IMG/VR virus record: IMGVR_UViG_3300028706_000553
Length of the DNA stretch: 64,000 nt
From: a virus
Reading direction: 5' to 3' (one strand)
Under the pieces are notes generated by a model. It had not been told where the DNA came from. It worked only from the letters and a program-made list of their open reading frames with translations, and ran no database searches. This document shows, one piece after another, positions 38,991 through 60,079 of this stretch. Positions within the stretch are counted from its first letter, which is position 1, and every line of letters starts with the position of its first letter. Made by a program: the position numbers and the translations under genes.

Positions 38991-39658
38991 TAGATTTTTG
39001 GGTTGGTTATACTCCAGGTAGAGAGATTGCAAATAGGAAATGTCGGCAGTCTTTAGAACAATTTGGAGTGGTCACACACGATGTACCGCATTATTGGGTA
39101 CCTAAAACGAACAATCCTTTTGCGAGGACGCGATACTTAGTTCCATTGATAGATTATAAATCAGATAATAAATGGGTTGCTTTTGTAGATGATGATTTCT
39201 TATTTTTTAGGAATCCATTATCTTTATATAAAACATTAGATGATAATAAAATGTTATATGTAGCAAAACACCCTGAATATGTATCTGTGACTACAATGAA
39301 AATGGCAGGTAAAGAAAAACATAAAGGTTGGCGAAATATTAATTATCCTAGAAAGAATTGGTCTAGTTTAATGATTTTCAATAAAGAAAAGTTTCCTTTA
39401 ACTATTAAGGAAATTTTTCATTCTCCGATGAGCTTTTTACACCAATTAGAATGGGCGGAACCGGAAGAAAATAATATAGGTTCTATTCCTTTAGAATGGA
39501 ATTGGTTGGTTGGGGAATTACATTGTCCCGATCGTGAAAATATTAATGCTGCTCATTATACCTTAGGAGGACCATGGTATGAAAAGTGGCCAAAATCAGT
39601 TTATGATAAATCATGGATAGAAATGGAAGAATATGATTACAGTAAAGATTTCGCATAA
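38987..39658 (+). CDS. GT-A fold glycosyltransferase (GT8-like)
   Basis: FVDDDFLF DxD motif, YPRKNWSSLMIFN, LEWNWLV, HYTLGGPW; ATG 38987 in ATGA overlap. Confidence 0.8.
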   Translation: MIDFWVGYTPGREIANRKCRQSLEQFGVVTHDVPHYWVPKTNNPFARTRYLVPLIDYKSDNKWVAFVDDDFLFFRNPLSLYKTLDDNKMLYVAKHPEYVSVTTMKMAGKEKHKGWRNINYPRKNWSSLMIFNKEKFPLTIKEIFHSPMSFLHQLEWAEPEENNIGSIPLEWNWLVGELHCPDRENINAAHYTLGGPWYEKWPKSVYDKSWIEMEEYDYSKDFA

Positions 39659-39881
39659 GGATAATCGTGATAATCAAGGGAAAGTAATAAAAGCTATGCA
39701 AAAGCTAAAGCAAATAGTTTCCCGTGAAGGCACTCTCAATGAGGTGAAAAGGCGACGTTATTATGTAAAACCGTCGATGCAAAAACGACTAAAGCGTGAA
39801 GAGGCAGAAAGACAACGAATAAAAGATATTCGTAATGACATTAAACAAGCAGAACGCTTAGAACAACAAATGTGGGGATAG
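39633..39881 (+). CDS. rpsU: ribosomal protein bS21
   Basis: KAMQKLKQIVSREGTLNEVKRRRYYVKPS aligns with the S21 core. Confidence 0.85.
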   Translation: MITVKISHKDNRDNQGKVIKAMQKLKQIVSREGTLNEVKRRRYYVKPSMQKRLKREEAERQRIKDIRNDIKQAERLEQQMWG

Positions 39882-41078: not shown

Positions 41079-41270
41079 ATGAGAACTCGATATGCAAGTG
41101 TAGGCACTGCTCATTTAGGGCATCCAAAAAATGACGTGGAAGAATCTACAAAAGAATATGCTAAATCTCTTGAGAAAATAGCAAATGATAAAGCATTAAA
41201 AATGCTTACTAAATCTGAAAGAGCAAATCTTCTGAAGATTAGGGATTTACTCGCTAAAGAGGAGAAGTAG
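41079..41270 (+). CDS. hypothetical protein
   Basis: short ORF directly upstream of iscU. Confidence 0.5.
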   Translation: MRTRYASVGTAHLGHPKNDVEESTKEYAKSLEKIANDKALKMLTKSERANLLKIRDLLAKEEK

Positions 41271-42649
41271 TGGCGTATAGTGAAAAAGTTGTAGATCATT
41301 TTACGAACCCTAAGAATGTGGGAAGTCTTGATAAAAACGATGTTAATGTAGGAACTGGCCTTGTCGGCGCACCTGAATGTGGCGATGTGATGAAACTCCA
41401 AATTAAAGTAGATGATAATCAAAACATAATTGATGCAAAGTTTAAGACATTCGGTTGTATTGGATCTAATAGTCCAATTGCAACTCCTAACGGATTTAAA
41501 AATATTTCAACTCTTTCGGTAGGAGAGGAAATTTGGGCTTGGAATGGAAAAGAAGTTGTAAAAAATACTATTTCTAAAATAAAAACAAAAGAAGTTGATT
41601 ATAGAGATTTATTAAGAATTGTTTTTGAAAAAGGAAGACAGCCTATAATTTGCTCCAAAGATCATATTTGGTGGGGGTCTGACAATAAGCCGATTGAAGC
41701 CATAGATTTAGAAGCTGGAAAAGAATTATTAGAAATCACTGAAAATGAAATTCGTTCTTTAAATAATGTAAGACAACAACAATGGTTAAAAGATAAAAAT
41801 TCTGTTAATATATCGGAACGTAATAAATTGGGTTTGATGAAACAAAACACCCTTCCTCAAAATCAAAAAGGATATAAACATACAGATGAAGCTAAACTAA
41901 ACCACTCAATCGCTTCAAAAAAAGTGTGGAAAAATCCTGAATATAGAAAAAATTGGGAAAGGGGAATGCAGGGGGCAGCTCAAAATAGACCAACTAAATT
42001 AGAAATTGAATATATTAATTTATTTGAAAAACATAAATTAGATGTAAGATATATTGGTGATGGTAGTTTTTGGTGTGGTTCTTCTCATCTAAATCCAGAT
42101 TTTAAAGTAAATGGCCAGAAAAAAGTAATAGAAGTTTATACTTCAAAGCTTCCTAAATTTATGATGGATAGAAGTGATGAGAATTGGATTGTAGAAAGAA
42201 AAGAAAAATTAGAAAACGCGGGATTTAAAAGTTTGTTTCTTGATATAAAGAACATTGAAAATTCGATACCTGAAGTAACTAAATTTATTCATAACGGATT
42301 TAAAATTAAAAAAATAAGTCCAATAGAAGATAAAAGACAATTAAGAGGGCAAGAAAGAAATGGTGATTTGGTTAAACTTTATGATTTATCACTAAAAGAA
42401 GGAGCCAACATATTTTTTGTTCATAGGGCCATGAGTCATAATTGTGGATCTGCAATTGCAGCATCATCATTGGCTACAGAATGGGTAAAGGATAGACACG
42501 TTGATGCCGCTATGGAAGTAAATAATACAGAGATTGTCGAAGAACTTTCTCTACCACCGGTTAAGATTCATTGTAGTGTATTAGCTGAAGATGCAATAAA
42601 AGCAGCGATTGCAGATTATAAACAAAAACAAGAAGGTATTGGGCCATGA
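41270..42649 (+). CDS. iscU: Fe-S cluster scaffold IscU precursor containing an intein (130 aa after splicing)
   Basis: YSEKVVDHF, APEC37GD39VM, FKTFG|C63GSAIA, LPPVKIHC. Confidence 0.93.
   Translation: MAYSEKVVDHFTNPKNVGSLDKNDVNVGTGLVGAPECGDVMKLQIKVDDNQNIIDAKFKTFGCIGSNSPIATPNGFKNISTLSVGEEIWAWNGKEVVKNTISKIKTKEVDYRDLLRIVFEKGRQPIICSKDHIWWGSDNKPIEAIDLEAGKELLEITENEIRSLNNVRQQQWLKDKNSVNISERNKLGLMKQNTLPQNQKGYKHTDEAKLNHSIASKKVWKNPEYRKNWERGMQGAAQNRPTKLEIEYINLFEKHKLDVRYIGDGSFWCGSSHLNPDFKVNGQKKVIEVYTSKLPKFMMDRSDENWIVERKEKLENAGFKSLFLDIKNIENSIPEVTKFIHNGFKIKKISPIEDKRQLRGQERNGDLVKLYDLSLKEGANIFFVHRAMSHNCGSAIAASSLATEWVKDRHVDAAMEVNNTEIVEELSLPPVKIHCSVLAEDAIKAAIADYKQKQEGIGP
41456..42442 (+). mobile_element. intein (329 aa) with NUMOD3-like and Vsr/DUF559-like endonuclease domain
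   Basis: block A CIGSNSPIATPNG, block B CSKDH, block F LYDLSL..ANIFFV, block G SHN followed by +1 Cys. Confidence 0.92.
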
Positions 42650-43536
42650 AACGTTTTATAGAAACATTAGAAGAGCCAGCAGAATATAATGAATTGCGTG
42701 ATATTATAGAGTCAAAACTCACGAGTGAAGAAGTGTTCCAGCATCATATAGTTCAGGGAAACACTGAAAAAGGTAAAGTGGCGCACACCGGAACGTTGAA
42801 ACAAATGCAAAAAAAGATAAGAGACCCCAAAACGGGCCCAAATCACGTTCTTGTAAAAACCCGGCATAAACTAAAAACAGGTGATACTTGGAAAAAACAC
42901 ATGCATGCCGAGAGTCTAGACACAGTGAATTCACTCAGAAGACCTCAATATACTATTAAAAACACAAAAACTGGTCAACATTATAGTACAAGTAGATATC
43001 AGGATGATGGAAAATTAAATAAGATTCGTAAAGGGGGAGGTGACCATAAACATGCCGCCCATTACAAAGATGGAAAACAACTTGAGGAAAGCCAGAATCT
43101 ACAAGCTAAAATGGCATTAGATGATGCAGGAATACCATGGACAATGAAGAGAAATAGGATAACTGTTAAGAAAAAAGATAAAAAGAAAGCTCAATTAGCA
43201 TGGGAAAAATCTTTCAAAAAAGGTGGATGGCCTAGTCTTAACATAGAGGACAATTCTCCTGTAATTGAAATAATAGGTGAAGAAGATATGCAAGAAGCGT
43301 TTTTCAAAGTCAAGATTCCAGATATTGCACAACCTACGTTTGTGGAAGCTGGTAGCGAATCACAAGTTAAAATGTCTTTGAGAAAGATTCTGAGACCAGA
43401 TAGTATGAAAGAACTAGAAATTGAAAAGGTTACCCCTACTGCAATGAAAAAGATGTACCGTGCTATGGCAAAGGGAGAAGATGATGTTGATGAAGCATGT
43501 GGGACTACACATAGCAAAGTAAAAAAAAAGTATTAG
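42646..43536 (+). CDS. probable internal head protein (multi-module, LxE cleavage-like sites)
   Basis: MKRFIETLEE start; modules follow LEE/MQE/VDE; possibly extended by -1 frameshift. Confidence 0.5.
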   Translation: MKRFIETLEEPAEYNELRDIIESKLTSEEVFQHHIVQGNTEKGKVAHTGTLKQMQKKIRDPKTGPNHVLVKTRHKLKTGDTWKKHMHAESLDTVNSLRRPQYTIKNTKTGQHYSTSRYQDDGKLNKIRKGGGDHKHAAHYKDGKQLEESQNLQAKMALDDAGIPWTMKRNRITVKKKDKKKAQLAWEKSFKKGGWPSLNIEDNSPVIEIIGEEDMQEAFFKVKIPDIAQPTFVEAGSESQVKMSLRKILRPDSMKELEIEKVTPTAMKKMYRAMAKGEDDVDEACGTTHSKVKKKY

Positions 43537-43541
43537 AGAAG

Positions 43542-43667
43542 TTGACTAAAAAGTCATCTACGGGTGATTACATTGATGACTTCAGTAAGTCCGACGCTCC
43601 TCAATTCAAAGGTAAATCCAAAGAAAAACGAAGGCAGATGGCTATTGCTGCCAAAATGAATGCATGA
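43542..43667 (+). CDS. DFxKSDAPQFKGKSKEKRRQMAIAA module (short ORF or frameshift extension)
   Basis: read by hand in the -1 frame; ends in ATGA overlap with iscA. Confidence 0.6.
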   Translation: MTKKSSTGDYIDDFSKSDAPQFKGKSKEKRRQMAIAAKMNA

Positions 43668-44026
43668 TAGAACTTACAGAACGAGCTAGTAAAAACTTTC
43701 ATAGGCTATTGGAGGATGAAGGTGTGGATGATGGTCGCCTAAGAGTGACTGTCACAGGTGGTGGATGTGCTGGATATGAATATAAACTTACTTTTGATAG
43801 CGCACCCAGCAAATTTGATTTAGAATTTGAATCCCTTGGTATAAATATTCTAGTTGATAAAAAAAGTCATTTATTAACTAATGGTTTAACAATAGATTGG
43901 AGTAATGATTTATCAGCTCCCGGACCAAGATTTGAAAATCCTGTGGCCACGTCGACATGTGGTTGCTCTACTAGTTTTAATGTTAAACAAAACACTTTTC
44001 AAAACAAACCATCATGGATGCCATAG
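43664..44026 (+). CDS. iscA: A-type Fe-S carrier IscA/HesB family
   Basis: LRVTVTGGGCAGYEY, VDKKS, FENP, CGCSTSF. Confidence 0.92.
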   Translation: MIELTERASKNFHRLLEDEGVDDGRLRVTVTGGGCAGYEYKLTFDSAPSKFDLEFESLGINILVDKKSHLLTNGLTIDWSNDLSAPGPRFENPVATSTCGCSTSFNVKQNTFQNKPSWMP

Positions 44027-56434: not shown

Positions 56435-57448
56435 ATGAATTTTAATACTCATATTCAATCATGTAATGGTTGGGATCCTCTTAAAGAGATAATCGTTGGC
56501 GATGTAACAGGTGCGAGGATCCCACCACTAAATCCCTCCATGAAAAACTTCATGTTTGCTAATCTAACTGATTCAGAGATAGTTAGCATATGTAAACCGT
56601 GGATGTACCCAACTCGAGTTATAGAAGAAACACAAGAAGATCTAGATTTATTAGCAAAGACATTATACGCTTTACATATTCGCGTATATAGGCCTGAGAA
56701 GAAAGTATATGGGTGGATGAATTACTGTCCACGTGATATATTCTTAGTGTTAAATGATACTATCATCGAAACACCATGTGTAATGAGTGAAAGAATAAAC
56801 GAATCATTTGCTTATAGACATATGTTAAATAATATTGATGATTATAGTAAGTGGATACAGGCACCCACCCCACAATACTTAGATATATCATTTAATTTTA
56901 CTGATTTATCTAAGCCCACGTTACAAAATACAGAAATTATGTTCGATGCTCCCAATGTCGTTAGATTAGGCACAGATTTATTATATCAGGTGAGCAATAG
57001 TGGTAATGAAAAAGGATATGATTGGTTAAAACATACATTCCCTGAGTATACTATACATCCAGCATATCAGTATTCAGGAGCACATTTTGATAGCACAGTA
57101 ATACCGTTAAGACCAGGCCTCGTATTATTAAATGGACATAGATGTAATGAAGATAATTACCCAGAAATATTTAAGAAGTGGGATAAGATATTCTTTACAG
57201 ATATAGTAGATCAGGACTCTGAGAATAGTGCAATAGCATCTAGCGCAATCGGATTAAATATATTAAGTATTAATGAACATACAGTTGTTATAGATAAGAA
57301 TCAAAAACCACTAATGAAAGAGTTAAAAAAGTGGGGTATAGATTCAATACCATTACAACTACGACACGCAAAGACGTTAGGTGGCGGATTCCATTGTGTG
57401 ACTCTGGACTTACATAGAGAAGGTAAGTTAGAACAATATGACTACTAA
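56435..57448 (+). CDS. amidinotransferase (glycine / inosamine-phosphate StrB1 family)
   Basis: NGWDPLKEIIVG, YCPRD, FDAPN, SNSGN..G, HFDST, LGGGFHC.TLD.HR. Confidence 0.92.
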   Translation: MNFNTHIQSCNGWDPLKEIIVGDVTGARIPPLNPSMKNFMFANLTDSEIVSICKPWMYPTRVIEETQEDLDLLAKTLYALHIRVYRPEKKVYGWMNYCPRDIFLVLNDTIIETPCVMSERINESFAYRHMLNNIDDYSKWIQAPTPQYLDISFNFTDLSKPTLQNTEIMFDAPNVVRLGTDLLYQVSNSGNEKGYDWLKHTFPEYTIHPAYQYSGAHFDSTVIPLRPGLVLLNGHRCNEDNYPEIFKKWDKIFFTDIVDQDSENSAIASSAIGLNILSINEHTVVIDKNQKPLMKELKKWGIDSIPLQLRHAKTLGGGFHCVTLDLHREGKLEQYDY

Positions 57449-58292
57449 GAAGTGCGCTGCATTATATAATCATACTCATATAAGACCCGGAGGTATAATA
57501 TATCCTTGTTGTAGATTTAAAAAGCAATTAGGGTATTTTGATGGTGATTTTGATAGCGTATTACACTCAAAGGAGTATGTCGAGTTACGTGAAAGGTTTG
57601 AGAAAGAGGAGATACCTGAATGTCAGAAATGCTGGGATCATGAGAACGCTGGCATACAATCAGAGAGACAAGTCTTTAATGAGAAGTGGAATTGTGATGA
57701 AATAAAATTAAGAGAGCTATGGATAGGAATAGATAATATATGTAATTTAAAATGTGTTATGTGTAATAAGGAGTATTCTAATCAATTTACAGGAGAGGTT
57801 ATTTCTACTAACGAGATAAAAAGTATTCCTGATATAGATAAGGTGGTGTTTTTAGGAGGAGAGCCTTTGATGAATGAAAGGTATTTCCGTCTACTACGAC
57901 AAATGAATAGAAGCATATTACATCTAACAATAATCACTAACGGTATGTTTAAATTACAAGATAAATGGAAGGAGATGTTAAGAGAATGTAAGCATGTAGT
58001 ATTTTTTGTAAGTATAGATGCGTGTGGTGAGCTTTGTGAAAGAGTTAGGGATGGTTCCAAGTGGGAAACAGTAGTAGAAACGGTAGAGGATTTAGAAACA
58101 GAGTGGCCAGTAACTGTTAATACTGTTATTCATAAAGATAATGTTAAGGGTATAGATGATTTGAAGAAATGGATAGATAAGAGACCGTGGCAAATCAATA
58201 TACTTACATATCCTTTTCATTTGAGGGTGACATCAGATGATAAACAAAGAATTATGAGAGACTTTAATCAATATTTTACTTATACGATATGA
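57438..58292 (+). CDS. radical SAM protein with N-terminal SPASM/twitch
   Basis: N-terminal C..YPCC..C..CW, then CNLKCVMC, GGEP, TNG, SID. Confidence 0.88.
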   Translation: MTTKKCAALYNHTHIRPGGIIYPCCRFKKQLGYFDGDFDSVLHSKEYVELRERFEKEEIPECQKCWDHENAGIQSERQVFNEKWNCDEIKLRELWIGIDNICNLKCVMCNKEYSNQFTGEVISTNEIKSIPDIDKVVFLGGEPLMNERYFRLLRQMNRSILHLTIITNGMFKLQDKWKEMLRECKHVVFFVSIDACGELCERVRDGSKWETVVETVEDLETEWPVTVNTVIHKDNVKGIDDLKKWIDKRPWQINILTYPFHLRVTSDDKQRIMRDFNQYFTYTI

Positions 58293-60079
58293 AACGCATT
58301 GCTTTTGTCGAGCTATCACATATATTTTCTAATCAAATAAAGTTACCATATTCTACAGGATGTATATGGAGCTATTGTAGGACAGACGATGAGATTACAA
58401 ATAATTATTCTTTTGATGTTCACGACTGGGTATATGTACTTAATGATTCATTTGATGTAGATAAAACAGCTCAACACTTAGCTGAGTGTGACATTGTGGG
58501 TATCTCATATTTTGTATGGAATACTCATGCATGCGATAAAGTATGTGCTAAGATAAAAAAGATAAACCCTAAATGTATAATCATATACGGTGGATTAGGC
58601 ACTCCAAAATATGGTCGATGTGATCAGTTTTTAAAAGATAGACCGTTCATTGATATGATAGTACATAATGAGGGTGAGATTGTCTTTAAGAATATATTAA
58701 AAGCATTATTATATAAACAGGATCTTAGGGACATTAAAGGTATTACTACTCATTTATTTCAAACACCATTAGATGGCAGGGTGAAAGATATGTCATCTAT
58801 GCCTAGTCCATATCTCGATGGATTATTCGACGATCTTATAGCAATTAAAAAACACACGTATGCATGGGAAAGTTTAATAGAATTAGAACGCGGCTGCCCA
58901 TATACATGTACATTCTGTGAGGTAGGCGATAGGCATTGGACTAAAATATTTAAACAAGATTATAATAAGTTAGTAAAAGAGATTGATTGGATATCGAATA
59001 AAAAGATAGATTACTTGCATCTTATAGATAATAATTTCGGAATGTATAAGGAACATAAGATTATATCTGATTTGCTTATAGATAAACTTAAAACAACTGG
59101 TTATCCTAATGCACTTAATATAACATGGGCAAAGCATAAAAAACCATACTTATTTGATATAGCAGAAGACTTATGGAAGGTTGGTCTTAATAAAAGTGTC
59201 ACGATCGCTCTACAGTCGATGAATTCACTTACATTAAAGGCGATCGAAAGAGCTAATGAGAATACTAATCTAAAAGAGGTAGTAGGTTATTTAAAAAGTA
59301 GAGGCATGCCTGCTTATATAGAAACTATTCTTGGTCTACCGGAGGAATCATTAGATAGTTTTAAAGAGGGTCTTTATAGATTGATTGACGACGTGAATTA
59401 TCATAATTATATTGGAATATATGTAATGGTTGCTCTTCCTAATACTCCATTTGGAGATCCTGAATATCTTAAAAAATATGGTGTACAAATAAAGCAAACA
59501 TCTCCCGCATTCTTTCATCATGAACATCCACCAGACCAATTATTAGAAGACGTTAACGATGTAGTAGTCGGCTCTAATAACATGTCGTTTGATGATTACT
59601 TAGAAGCAACAGGATGGAAGTGGTTTATGATATCTCTACATTTCCTAGGATGGCTTAGAATATTAGCTTTAGAATTAAAGAATAATCATAACATATCAAT
59701 GAGAGAGTTTTATAATGGATTATTTGAATGGTTTACAAACAACGACAGATCATTATTGTATAGAGAGTATACAGTAACAATGAGACTATTAAGGAAGGTA
59801 TTTAATAGAGAGATTCCATGGGGACGTAGAGTATCAGGCGCTTCTAATATCTATTGGGAGTATGAAGAAGCAACTGCTATACACATTGCTAAAGAGAAAG
59901 ACCGTTTCTATGGAGAAATAGGTGACTATTTAAAAGATGAATATGGTTTTGGATATTCAATAGTTAATGATCAATACAATAAGATGAAAGACCCTTACGA
60001 AGTCTATAATGGTAACTTAGAAAAGTGGGCTCGCGAATGTATGTGGTGGGGTCGGAGAGCAGAGAGGTTTTTTGTATGA
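58289..60079 (+). CDS. cobalamin-binding radical SAM protein
   Basis: N-terminal B12-like GISYFVWN..IIYGG..NEGE, then RGCPYTCTFC, DNNFG, ILGLP. Confidence 0.88.
   Translation: MKRIAFVELSHIFSNQIKLPYSTGCIWSYCRTDDEITNNYSFDVHDWVYVLNDSFDVDKTAQHLAECDIVGISYFVWNTHACDKVCAKIKKINPKCIIIYGGLGTPKYGRCDQFLKDRPFIDMIVHNEGEIVFKNILKALLYKQDLRDIKGITTHLFQTPLDGRVKDMSSMPSPYLDGLFDDLIAIKKHTYAWESLIELERGCPYTCTFCEVGDRHWTKIFKQDYNKLVKEIDWISNKKIDYLHLIDNNFGMYKEHKIISDLLIDKLKTTGYPNALNITWAKHKKPYLFDIAEDLWKVGLNKSVTIALQSMNSLTLKAIERANENTNLKEVVGYLKSRGMPAYIETILGLPEESLDSFKEGLYRLIDDVNYHNYIGIYVMVALPNTPFGDPEYLKKYGVQIKQTSPAFFHHEHPPDQLLEDVNDVVVGSNNMSFDDYLEATGWKWFMISLHFLGWLRILALELKNNHNISMREFYNGLFEWFTNNDRSLLYREYTVTMRLLRKVFNREIPWGRRVSGASNIYWEYEEATAIHIAKEKDRFYGEIGDYLKDEYGFGYSIVNDQYNKMKDPYEVYNGNLEKWARECMWWGRRAERFFV

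What the first reader, a model, noticed from the sequence alone, without database searches (positions are those of the whole stretch)
41270..42649. Phage IscU interrupted by an intein exactly at the Fe-S ligand Cys63
Seen: the exteins join into a complete 130-aa IscU with Cys37, Asp39, Cys63, LPPVK and His-Cys. The 329-aa insert (41456-42442) starts with Cys, ends His-Asn, and uses Cys63 as the +1 nucleophile. Known: phage inteins usually sit in terminases, RNR, polymerases and helicases, and the mycobacterial SufB intein is a described redox/metal-sensitive switch in Fe-S assembly. Inference: the scaffold is non-functional until spliced, so splicing could couple phage Fe-S assembly to iron or oxidative status. 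I am not aware of described IscU inteins, but cannot check this.
Basis: partly seen in the sequence, partly recalled or inferred. Interest (0 to 1): 0.9.

Follow-up and report, generated by a model that had tools for sequence, protein, structure and literature searches.

The report
Intein inside a phage IscU gene
A marine T4-like phage's iron-sulfur scaffold gene (iscU) is interrupted, exactly before the cluster-binding Cys63, by a canonical self-splicing intein that carries a homing endonuclease. The same insertion is unannotated but widespread in phages, giant viruses and a few bacteria, and I found no paper that describes it.

Summary
ORF 41270-42649 (+) encodes a 459-aa precursor. Its 62-aa and 68-aa flanks join into a complete 130-aa IscU (TIGR01999, 1e-60). 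The 329-aa insert (41456-42442) is a class-1 intein: Cys1, block B SxxH, block F Asp, His-Asn, and +1 Cys63. Structure prediction and profile searches match it to gp41-1, DnaB and Prp8 inteins. Its middle domain is a Vsr-like homing endonuclease; the best match is I-Bth0305I (Z 11.1).

It is not a one-off. More than 120 protein clusters carry this intein at this site. So do 39 complete IMG/VR viral loci, jumbo phages and a giant-virus-like contig. Bona fide bacterial isc operons carry it too (Achromatium, Polyangiaceae, an alphaproteobacterium). Some IscUs hold a second intein before Cys37.

A 99.6%-identical sister allele has a clean 516-bp deletion of the endonuclease. This fits the decay stage of a homing cycle.

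The best reading is a selfish mobile intein that must splice to give active IscU. The iron/redox-sensor idea is plausible, because the +1 nucleophile is a metal ligand, but it is untested. Literature searches found no description of an IscU or NifU intein. I class it as a new member of a known kind. Notes from this same scan had already flagged the endonuclease type.

The parts
41270..41455 (+). IscU N-extein, residues 1-62 (GTG start; contains Cys37 and Asp39)
   Evidence: TIGR01999 profile positions 1-62 and NifU_N 1-62; alignment A1
41456..41740 (+). Intein N-terminal Hint lobe: block A Cys1 (41456-41458) and block B S-K-D-H (41654-41665)
   Evidence: C1, T72/P73 and H132 are invariant in A1. 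The profile hits the gp41-1 intein at 4.8e-5, with ICSKDHIWW aligned to ICSEEHLW. Foldseek hits inteins.
41741..42292 (+). Homing-endonuclease domain inserted in the intein: helical NUMOD3-like DNA-binding part followed by a Vsr/DUF559-like nuclease (conserved D277 at 42098-42100, K285, E288 at 42131-42133)
   Evidence: Free-standing ~270-aa relatives: 27 of 50 carry NUMOD3, and some carry DUF559 or Vsr. AF2 model pLDDT 87. Matches I-Bth0305I 3r3p at Z 11.1, rmsd 2.7 A, 90 residues, and Vsr at Z 9.1. The profile hits 3r3p at 2.9e-5.
41737..42262 (+). Stretch bounded by a 10-bp direct repeat. 516 bp (172 codons) of it are missing in a 99.6%-identical sister allele (L019), which removes the endonuclease in frame.
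   Evidence: blastn of L019 against the window; protein alignment of P0005 with P0001
42293..42442 (+). Intein C-terminal Hint lobe: block F Asp372 (42383-42385) and block G His390-Asn391 (42437-42442)
   Evidence: D372, H390 and N391 are invariant or nearly so in A1. HN|C is present in 121 of 121 alleles.
42443..42649 (+). IscU C-extein with stop codon: +1 Cys (= IscU Cys63, 42443-42445), LPPVK, His105-Cys106
   Evidence: TIGR01999 and NifU_N second stretch. In the AF2 precursor the exteins fold as IscU, TM 0.88 to ISCU2 and E. coli IscU.
43664..44026 (+). A-type Fe-S carrier (IscA/HesB family), the conserved partner gene of iscU in these phages and in bacterial isc operons
   Evidence: PF01521, 2.9e-15. 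The same pairing occurs in L002, L005, L007, L017, L018 and L064.

Best explanation
This is a canonical class-1 intein with an embedded homing endonuclease, living as a selfish mobile element in the iscU auxiliary metabolic gene of a marine T4-like myovirus.

The gene is translated as a 459-aa precursor. The Hint domain then carries out the standard four steps: (1) an N-S acyl shift at Cys1; (2) transesterification onto the +1 Cys, which is IscU Cys63; (3) cyclisation of Asn391; (4) an S-N shift. This releases a 329-aa intein and a seamless 130-aa IscU, which works with the phage IscA-type carrier to supply clusters to phage and host Fe-S enzymes.

At the DNA level, the NUMOD3-like plus Vsr-like nuclease domain is expected to cut intein-free iscU alleles at the conserved GCGSAIA-coding site during co-infection, or in a host. 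Recombinational repair then copies the intein in.

The site is explained by the usual intein logic: an invariant DNA target plus an obligatory Cys nucleophile. No regulatory role is needed.

Shown here: the anatomy, the folds, residue conservation, intein-free and intein-bearing alleles, and endonuclease-deleted alleles. Inferred: actual splicing, endonuclease activity and its target.
For: - IscU identity and the split.
- Phage identity: tail sheath, portal, large terminase and gp46-like genes. The nearest portal is from Pelagibacter phage Mosig, followed by cyanophages.
- Splicing residues: invariant across 30 aligned alleles, and HN|C is present in 121 of 121.
- Relatives in other exteins: the same intein family sits in radical SAM, PolB and transglutaminase-like proteins and scores above Pfam thresholds for Intein_splicing and Hint.
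- Precursor model: AF2 pLDDT 81.6. The exteins superpose on IscU and the insert superposes on gp41-1, DnaB, Prp8 and VMA inteins. The profile hits gp41-1 at 4.8e-5.
- Endonuclease: matches I-Bth0305I at Z 11.1 and by profile at 2.9e-5. The window copy carries every residue listed as invariant or near-invariant for the family.
- Intein-free phage alleles exist: Phage C48C1 and Acinetobacter phage MD-2021a.
- Homing-cycle stages are all seen: full-length inteins (most are 329-343 aa), alleles with a shrunken endonuclease (270-295 aa), mini-inteins (152-163 aa), and a 99.6%-identical allele with a clean in-frame endonuclease deletion.
- Scattered distribution across T4-like phages, jumbo phages, an NCLDV-like contig and four bacterial lineages.
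Against: - No experiment shows splicing or DNA cleavage.
- The window's own Hint region is below Pfam thresholds. Its NUMOD3 is not detected by Pfam (member 1).
- The nuclease domain has no invariant His, so I did not find the EDxHD catalytic signature of I-Bth0305I. Activity could differ or be lost.
- Intein and extein identities are correlated (Spearman 0.68). This indicates much vertical co-descent rather than rampant homing. Long retention could also reflect a benefit to the host gene.
Confidence: 0.85

Rival explanations
1. Conditional protein splicing. The intein acts as a post-translational switch. The +1 nucleophile is the Fe-S/Zn ligand Cys63, and the extein halves can pre-assemble an IscU-like fold. 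Metal binding, persulfidation by IscS, or a Cys1-Cys+1 disulfide would therefore block transesterification. Production of active scaffold would then be tied to iron, sulfur or redox status during infection.
For: - In the AF2 precursor the two exteins already pack as IscU (TM 0.88 over both halves), so the ligand pocket could form before splicing.
- A second IscU intein uses the other ligand, Cys37, as its +1 residue.
- The insertion has been retained across very different viruses and bacteria, with correlated intein and extein divergence.
- Precedent from the literature: the M. tuberculosis SufB intein is reported as an oxidative/nitrosative stress sensor (Topilina 2015, cited in PMC4760082).
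- From my own knowledge, not checked here: Zn2+ inhibits several inteins by binding the +1 Cys.
Against: - Nothing in the sequence distinguishes this intein from an ordinary selfish one.
- Ligand cysteines lie in the most conserved DNA and supply the required nucleophile. Both sites are therefore expected targets without any function.
- Intein-free alleles work in related phages.
- Most alleles keep an endonuclease, which is typical of active parasites.
- The model coordinates could not be inspected for Cys-Cys distances.
Confidence: 0.12
2. Dead element. The insert no longer splices and the phage iscU is a pseudogene, or it encodes a protein with another role.
For: The Pfam Hint score of this copy is sub-threshold. 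Block B has Ser instead of the commoner Thr.
Against: - The reading frame is open over 1,380 nt and is translationally coupled at both ends.
- All nucleophiles and assisting residues are intact.
- The exteins keep every IscU ligand and pass the equivalog cutoff.
- The nearest alleles (P0003, P0004, P0015, P0016) share the Ser variant and are also intact.
- The endonuclease-deleted sister allele keeps the Hint lobes in frame with one substitution.
Confidence: 0.03

Closest known systems
Mycobacterium tuberculosis SufB (Pps1) intein
   Same: It is an intein inside a core Fe-S cluster assembly protein. Catalytic cysteines make redox control conceivable.
   Different: The extein is different (the SUF scaffold SufB, not the ISC scaffold IscU). 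The SufB intein is not at a cluster-ligand residue as far as I know. I ran no direct comparison of the two inteins. The IscU intein is mainly viral.
gp41-1 and other phage-type inteins from marine metagenomes (Dassa et al. 2009, PMC2677866)
   Same: It is the closest solved Hint domain by profile (4.8e-5) and by fold. It also comes from marine phage-like sequences and is also associated with Vsr-like homing endonucleases.
   Different: gp41-1 is a naturally split mini-intein in a helicase, with the endonuclease gene free-standing between the two halves. Here the intein is contiguous and the endonuclease is fused in frame inside it.
I-Bth0305I / 'EDxHD' Vsr-like homing endonuclease family (Taylor et al. 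2011, PMC3239194; PDB 3r3p)
   Same: It has the same domain order (N-terminal NUMOD-type DNA-binding region, C-terminal Vsr-like nuclease). It is the best structural match (Z 11.1) and a significant profile match.
   Different: I-Bth0305I is encoded in a group I intron and uses NUMOD2 motifs. Relatives of this one carry NUMOD3. The conserved residues here are PDF...K..IEV, with no invariant His, so I did not find the EDxHD signature.
Phage-encoded IscU and A-type carrier auxiliary metabolic genes in marine T4-like viral genomes (Nishimura et al. 2017, PMC5332604)
   Same: Same gene pair (iscU plus an A-type carrier), same kind of phage, and the same co-occurrence with radical SAM genes.
   Different: That paper does not mention an intein (0 occurrences).

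Membership tests
Intein (class 1, Hint superfamily) | Hint fold | tested here: met
   AF2 precursor (pLDDT 81.6) matches gp41-1, DnaB, Prp8 and VMA inteins by Foldseek, E 3e-6 to 1e-3. The profile of 6 alleles hits gp41-1 at 4.8e-5. Homologues score above threshold for PF14890 and PF07591. The window copy alone is sub-threshold.
Intein (class 1, Hint superfamily) | N-terminal nucleophile (Cys1/Ser1) and block B TxxH | tested here: met
   Cys63 of the precursor is invariant. Block B reads S129-K-D-H132, with His invariant and Ser/Thr alternating among alleles.
Intein (class 1, Hint superfamily) | C-terminal His-Asn followed by a +1 Cys/Ser/Thr | tested here: met
   H390-N391|C392; HNC in 121 of 121 alleles.
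Intein (class 1, Hint superfamily) | In-frame insertion in a conserved host protein that also exists without the insert | tested here: met
   The IscU equivalog model matches in two stretches that abut at profile position 62/63. Intein-free 123-aa iscU is present in Phage C48C1 and others.
Intein (class 1, Hint superfamily) | Autocatalytic splicing that yields ligated exteins | not testable with these tools
   Needs expression of the precursor and detection of the spliced products.
IscU (ISC Fe-S scaffold, TIGR01999) | Score above the equivalog cutoff; ligands Cys37, Asp39, Cys63, His105, Cys106 and the LPPVK chaperone motif | tested here: met
   203.2 bits against a cutoff of 192.4. All of these residues are present in the joined exteins. 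The fold has TM 0.88-0.89 to human ISCU2 and E. coli IscU.
Vsr-like / EDxHD homing endonucleases | Vsr-type nuclease fold after an N-terminal NUMOD DNA-binding region | tested here: met
   3r3p at Z 11.1, rmsd 2.7 A, 90 of 97 residues; Vsr 1cw0 at Z 9.1. Profile to 3r3p at 2.9e-5. NUMOD3 is found in 27 of 50 free-standing relatives, but Pfam does not call it in the window copy itself.
Vsr-like / EDxHD homing endonucleases | EDxHD catalytic residues | tested here: inconclusive
   The Glu of IEV aligns with I-Bth0305I, and D277, K285, E288 and R301 are invariant. No invariant His was seen in the nuclease domain. I did not make a residue-by-residue structural superposition.
Vsr-like / EDxHD homing endonucleases | Site-specific cleavage of the insert-free allele | not testable with these tools
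   Needs a cleavage assay on intein-free iscU DNA.

The most novel reading that the evidence does not exclude
IscU inteins are not mere parasites but a conserved conditional-splicing switch. Both known insertion sites use a cluster-ligand cysteine (Cys37 or Cys63) as the splice-junction nucleophile. Metal occupancy, persulfide loading or oxidation of the half-assembled scaffold pocket would therefore gate maturation of IscU. This would let phages, giant viruses and some bacteria tune Fe-S biogenesis to iron and redox status.
Probability: 0.12. Interest if true: 0.8.

Novelty: new member of a known kind. Interest (0 to 1): 0.58.

Why it matters
- It adds the ISC scaffold IscU to the list of intein host proteins. 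That list is otherwise dominated by replication, repair and nucleotide-metabolism enzymes.
- It is, as far as I could find, an undescribed case in which the splice-junction nucleophile is itself a metal-cluster ligand. It happens at two sites in the same small protein.
- That makes a clean, small (130-aa extein) natural system for testing whether ligand binding controls protein splicing.
- The allele is abundant and spans phages, jumbo phages, giant-virus-like contigs and bacteria. It is therefore a useful marker for gene flow between viruses and hosts.
- It is also an annotation trap. These genes are currently labelled 'NifU-like' or 'hypothetical', with no mention of an intein.
- The contiguous intein with an in-frame Vsr-like endonuclease may represent the integrated state that the 'fractured gene' model predicts.

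Tried and rejected
- Megablast of 20 kb of the window against INPHARED phages found nothing, so there is no close cultured relative.
- No whole genome is held for this window, so other inteins elsewhere in the phage could not be sought. Within the window, HMMs of the intein and of the endonuclease hit only this ORF.
- Foldseek alone gave only weak matches for the endonuclease (best E 9e-3). The VIA re-alignment was needed.
- A single-protein scan of IMG/VR found one locus. The alignment-based scan found 43.
- My first regular expression for the Cys37-site intein found none. The corrected one found seven.
- Nine literature searches were run. Those aimed at inteins (intein with IscU, with NifU, with iron-sulfur cluster assembly, with giant virus, with Achromatium) gave no paper that describes this intein. 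The eukaryote, Anaeramoeba and Novikova 2015 surveys do not mention it in their main text, and the Novikova supplements are not held.
- InBase could not be consulted, so prior cataloguing cannot be excluded.
- I considered a bacterial intein-like (BIL) domain and rejected it: the insert has His-Asn, a +1 Cys and a conserved-site insertion.
- I considered an assembly artefact for the endonuclease-deleted allele and judged it unlikely: the junction is a 10-bp repeat in a k=141 assembly, and the deletion is in frame.

Full report
**1. The observation**

The window encodes, on the + strand, an ORF from 41270 to 42649 (459 aa). Its GTG start overlaps the stop of the upstream ORF by one base, and its stop overlaps the ATG of the next ORF.

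NCBIfam's IscU equivalog model (TIGR01999) scores 203 bits against a cutoff of 192, in two stretches. The first covers residues 3-65 and profile positions 1-62. Pfam NifU_N gives 2e-48, also in two stretches.

Residues 1-62 and 392-459 join to a 130-aa IscU with Cys37, Asp39, Cys63, LPPVK and His105-Cys106. The 329 residues between them (nt 41456-42442) begin with Cys and end with His-Asn, and the next residue is the IscU Cys63.

**2. It is an intein**

The window copy on its own gets only a sub-threshold Pfam Hint match (PT-HINT, E 0.009), so I sought other evidence.

- **Recurrence.** A search of 5.8 billion proteins returned at least 718 hits. The best 120 were almost all IscUs of about 460 aa with the same insert, 50-60% identical over the full length.
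- **Conserved splicing residues.** In an alignment of 30 of them, these positions are invariant or nearly so: Cys1, T72-P73, the block B His (I-C-[ST]-x-[DE]-H), the block F Asp372, and His390-Asn391-Cys392. Among the 269 proteins fetched, 121 carry the insert at this site, and all 121 have HN|C.
- **Relatives in other host proteins.** An exhaustive phmmer search with the insert alone found 1,583 relatives. They include inserts in radical SAM enzymes, a family-B DNA polymerase and a transglutaminase-like protein. These score above Pfam thresholds for Intein_splicing and Hint.
- **Predicted structure.** An AlphaFold2 model of the precursor (pLDDT 81.6) shows the two exteins packed together as IscU (TM 0.88-0.89 to human ISCU2 and E. 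coli IscU). The insert matches the gp41-1, Ssp and Npu DnaB, Prp8 and VMA inteins (Foldseek E 3e-6 to 1e-3).
- **Sequence profile.** A profile of six alleles hits the gp41-1 intein at 4.8e-5.

**3. The endonuclease**

Residues 158-341 of the precursor match a large family of free-standing proteins of about 270 aa. Of 50 sampled, 27 carry NUMOD3 motifs, and a few reach DUF559, Vsr or MTES_1575.

[quoted passage not shown] Next come a DUF559-like protein (Z 9.2) and Vsr (Z 9.1). The family profile also hits 3r3p by sequence (2.9e-5).

This is the Vsr-like homing endonuclease lineage first predicted in marine 'fractured genes' (PMC2677866) and characterised as the EDxHD family (PMC3239194). The window copy keeps every family-conserved residue (D277, K285, E288, R301). 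I saw no invariant His, however, so membership of the EDxHD subgroup in the strict sense remains open.

**4. The host genome**

The window is a T4-like myovirus. It encodes a tail sheath, portal, large terminase and a gp46-like nuclease, and all genes lie on one strand. It has no close cultured relative. Its portal is nearest to those of Pelagibacter phage Mosig, cyanophages and Methylophilales phages, at 52-55% identity.

An IscA-type carrier gene lies 1 kb downstream (43664-44026). The window also encodes at least two radical SAM enzymes and a ribosomal protein S21.

Phage iscU and A-type carrier genes in marine T4-like genomes are known auxiliary metabolic genes (PMC5332604). That paper does not mention inteins.

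**5. Distribution**

The same intein at the same site occurs in the following contexts:

| Context | Evidence |
|---|---|
| Jumbo-phage contigs of 245-353 kb, next to DnaB, RNR and an IscA gene | |
| Another 104-kb phage contig | |
| 43 IMG/VR viral loci; 39 are complete and sit in iscU at the identical junction | |
| An 85-kb contig with poxvirus-type PARP_regulatory, myosin, SET and kinase genes, i.e. giant-virus-like; its IscU has a presequence-like N-terminal extension | |
| Bacterial iscR-iscS-iscU-iscA-hscBA or iscS-iscU-iscA operons: an alphaproteobacterial MAG, Candidatus Achromatium, a Polyangiaceae MAG and a Bacteroidota-like contig | |

Among representative genomes of 185,579 prokaryotic species, only seven loci matched the two search patterns. 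One of these (a 2-kb contig binned as Crocinitomicaceae) has exteins identical to two viral contigs, over the 20 residues compared on each side of the intein, and is probably viral. On these pattern-based scans, viruses look like the main reservoir.

Source annotations call these proteins 'NifU-like' or 'hypothetical'.

**6. A second site**

Seven of the fetched IscUs carry another intein of 149-222 aa, some with an HNH domain. It is inserted as GAPx|C...N|CGDV, that is, immediately before Cys37. Five of the seven (P0018, P0022, P0041, P0045, P0120) were read as carrying the Cys63 intein as well. Both cluster-ligand cysteines of the N-terminal half therefore serve as +1 nucleophiles in some lineages.

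**7. Life-cycle evidence**

Intein-free iscU exists in other phages: Phage C48C1 (123 aa) and Acinetobacter phage MD-2021a.

Lengths of the intein-bearing alleles:

- Most are full-length, at 329-343 aa.
- A few have a shrunken endonuclease, at 270-295 aa.
- Three are mini-inteins, at 152-163 aa.

Most tellingly, a 1,160-bp contig from a sister sample (L019) is 99.5-99.7% identical in DNA to the window on both sides. It lacks exactly 516 bp (172 codons), bounded by a 10-bp direct repeat. This removes the endonuclease in frame and leaves the Hint lobes with a single substitution. This is the endonuclease-loss stage of the homing cycle, seen within what is apparently the same phage population (the contig comes from a neighbouring sample accession). 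It also indicates selection to keep splicing.

Across 107 full alleles, intein and extein identities correlate (Spearman 0.68). Mean identity is 56% for inteins against 73% for exteins. Much of the history is therefore co-descent within lineages.

**8. Mechanism**

The best-supported reading (0.85) is an ordinary class-1 intein:

1. N-S acyl shift at Cys1.
2. Transesterification onto the +1 Cys (IscU Cys63).
3. Cyclisation of Asn391.
4. S-N shift, giving a 130-aa IscU and a free intein.

The intein's nuclease would cut empty iscU alleles and so spread the element. The choice of site follows from the extreme conservation of the GCGSAIA-coding DNA and from the need for a Cys.

The precursor model already docks the extein halves into an IscU-like fold, so metal or persulfide at the ligand pocket could occupy the +1 thiol. 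The SufB intein also offers a precedent. No data here test the idea, and every observation is expected of a selfish element. A dead intein or pseudogene is unlikely (0.03), given the intact residues and open frame.

**9. Novelty**

Nine literature searches were run. Those combining intein with IscU, NifU, iron-sulfur cluster assembly, giant virus or Achromatium gave no description of an IscU or NifU intein. Nor did targeted reading of three intein surveys. InBase and the survey supplements could not be checked.

I class it as a new member of a known kind: a new host protein and two new insertion sites for inteins, with a known endonuclease lineage. Interest is moderate to good. The element itself is conventional. 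Its position on a metal-ligand nucleophile, its breadth across virus types, and the ready natural set of full, mini and empty alleles make the conditional-splicing question directly testable.

Earlier notes of this scan on the same stretch had already suggested the NUMOD3 plus Vsr/DUF559-like endonuclease and the Fe-S supply context. I reached the former independently, before that look-up, and confirmed it further afterwards. I confirmed the latter in part.

Noticed in passing
L003:8001-9893 (also L004), proteins P0041, P0045, P0027: A giant-virus-like contig (PARP_regulatory, myosin head, SET, RING and kinase genes) encodes an IscU with an N-terminal presequence-like extension and two inteins, before Cys37 and before Cys63. 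It looks like a mitochondrial-type ISCU carried by an NCLDV.
   Followed up: partly
L019:1-1160 against window 41127-42802: A sister-sample allele is 99.6% identical to the window but lacks 516 bp between 10-bp direct repeats. This converts the 329-aa intein into a 157-aa mini-intein.
   Followed up: yes
window 39633-39881 (+): Phage-encoded ribosomal protein S21 (PF01165, 3e-12), 1.4 kb upstream of iscU.
   Followed up: partly
L005:7145-7999: In the alphaproteobacterial isc operon, a Bro-N domain gene sits between iscS and the intein-bearing iscU. That allele's intein also has a 50-residue extra insert. There may be a second mobile element at the same locus.
   Followed up: no
L014 (MAG binned as Crocinitomicaceae, 2,139-bp contig): Its iscU exteins, over the 20 residues compared on each side of the intein, are identical to those of IMG/VR contigs L045 and L046. 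It is probably a viral contig mis-binned into a bacterial MAG.
   Followed up: partly
window 42646-43536 (+): A 296-aa lysine-rich ORF lies between iscU and iscA and is translationally coupled to iscU. It has no Pfam match and only a weak PHROG hit to a 'major head protein' family (1.8e-7). Its function is unknown.
   Followed up: no
window 57438-60079 (+): Two adjacent radical SAM proteins, one with an N-terminal SPASM domain. They are likely clients of the phage Fe-S supply genes.
   Followed up: partly
window 41651-41653 (precursor Cys128): A Cys immediately before the block B Ser/Thr is invariant in the 30 aligned IscU inteins, but it is absent from the two most divergent alleles (P0127, P0130). 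Its role is unknown (structural or redox).
   Followed up: no
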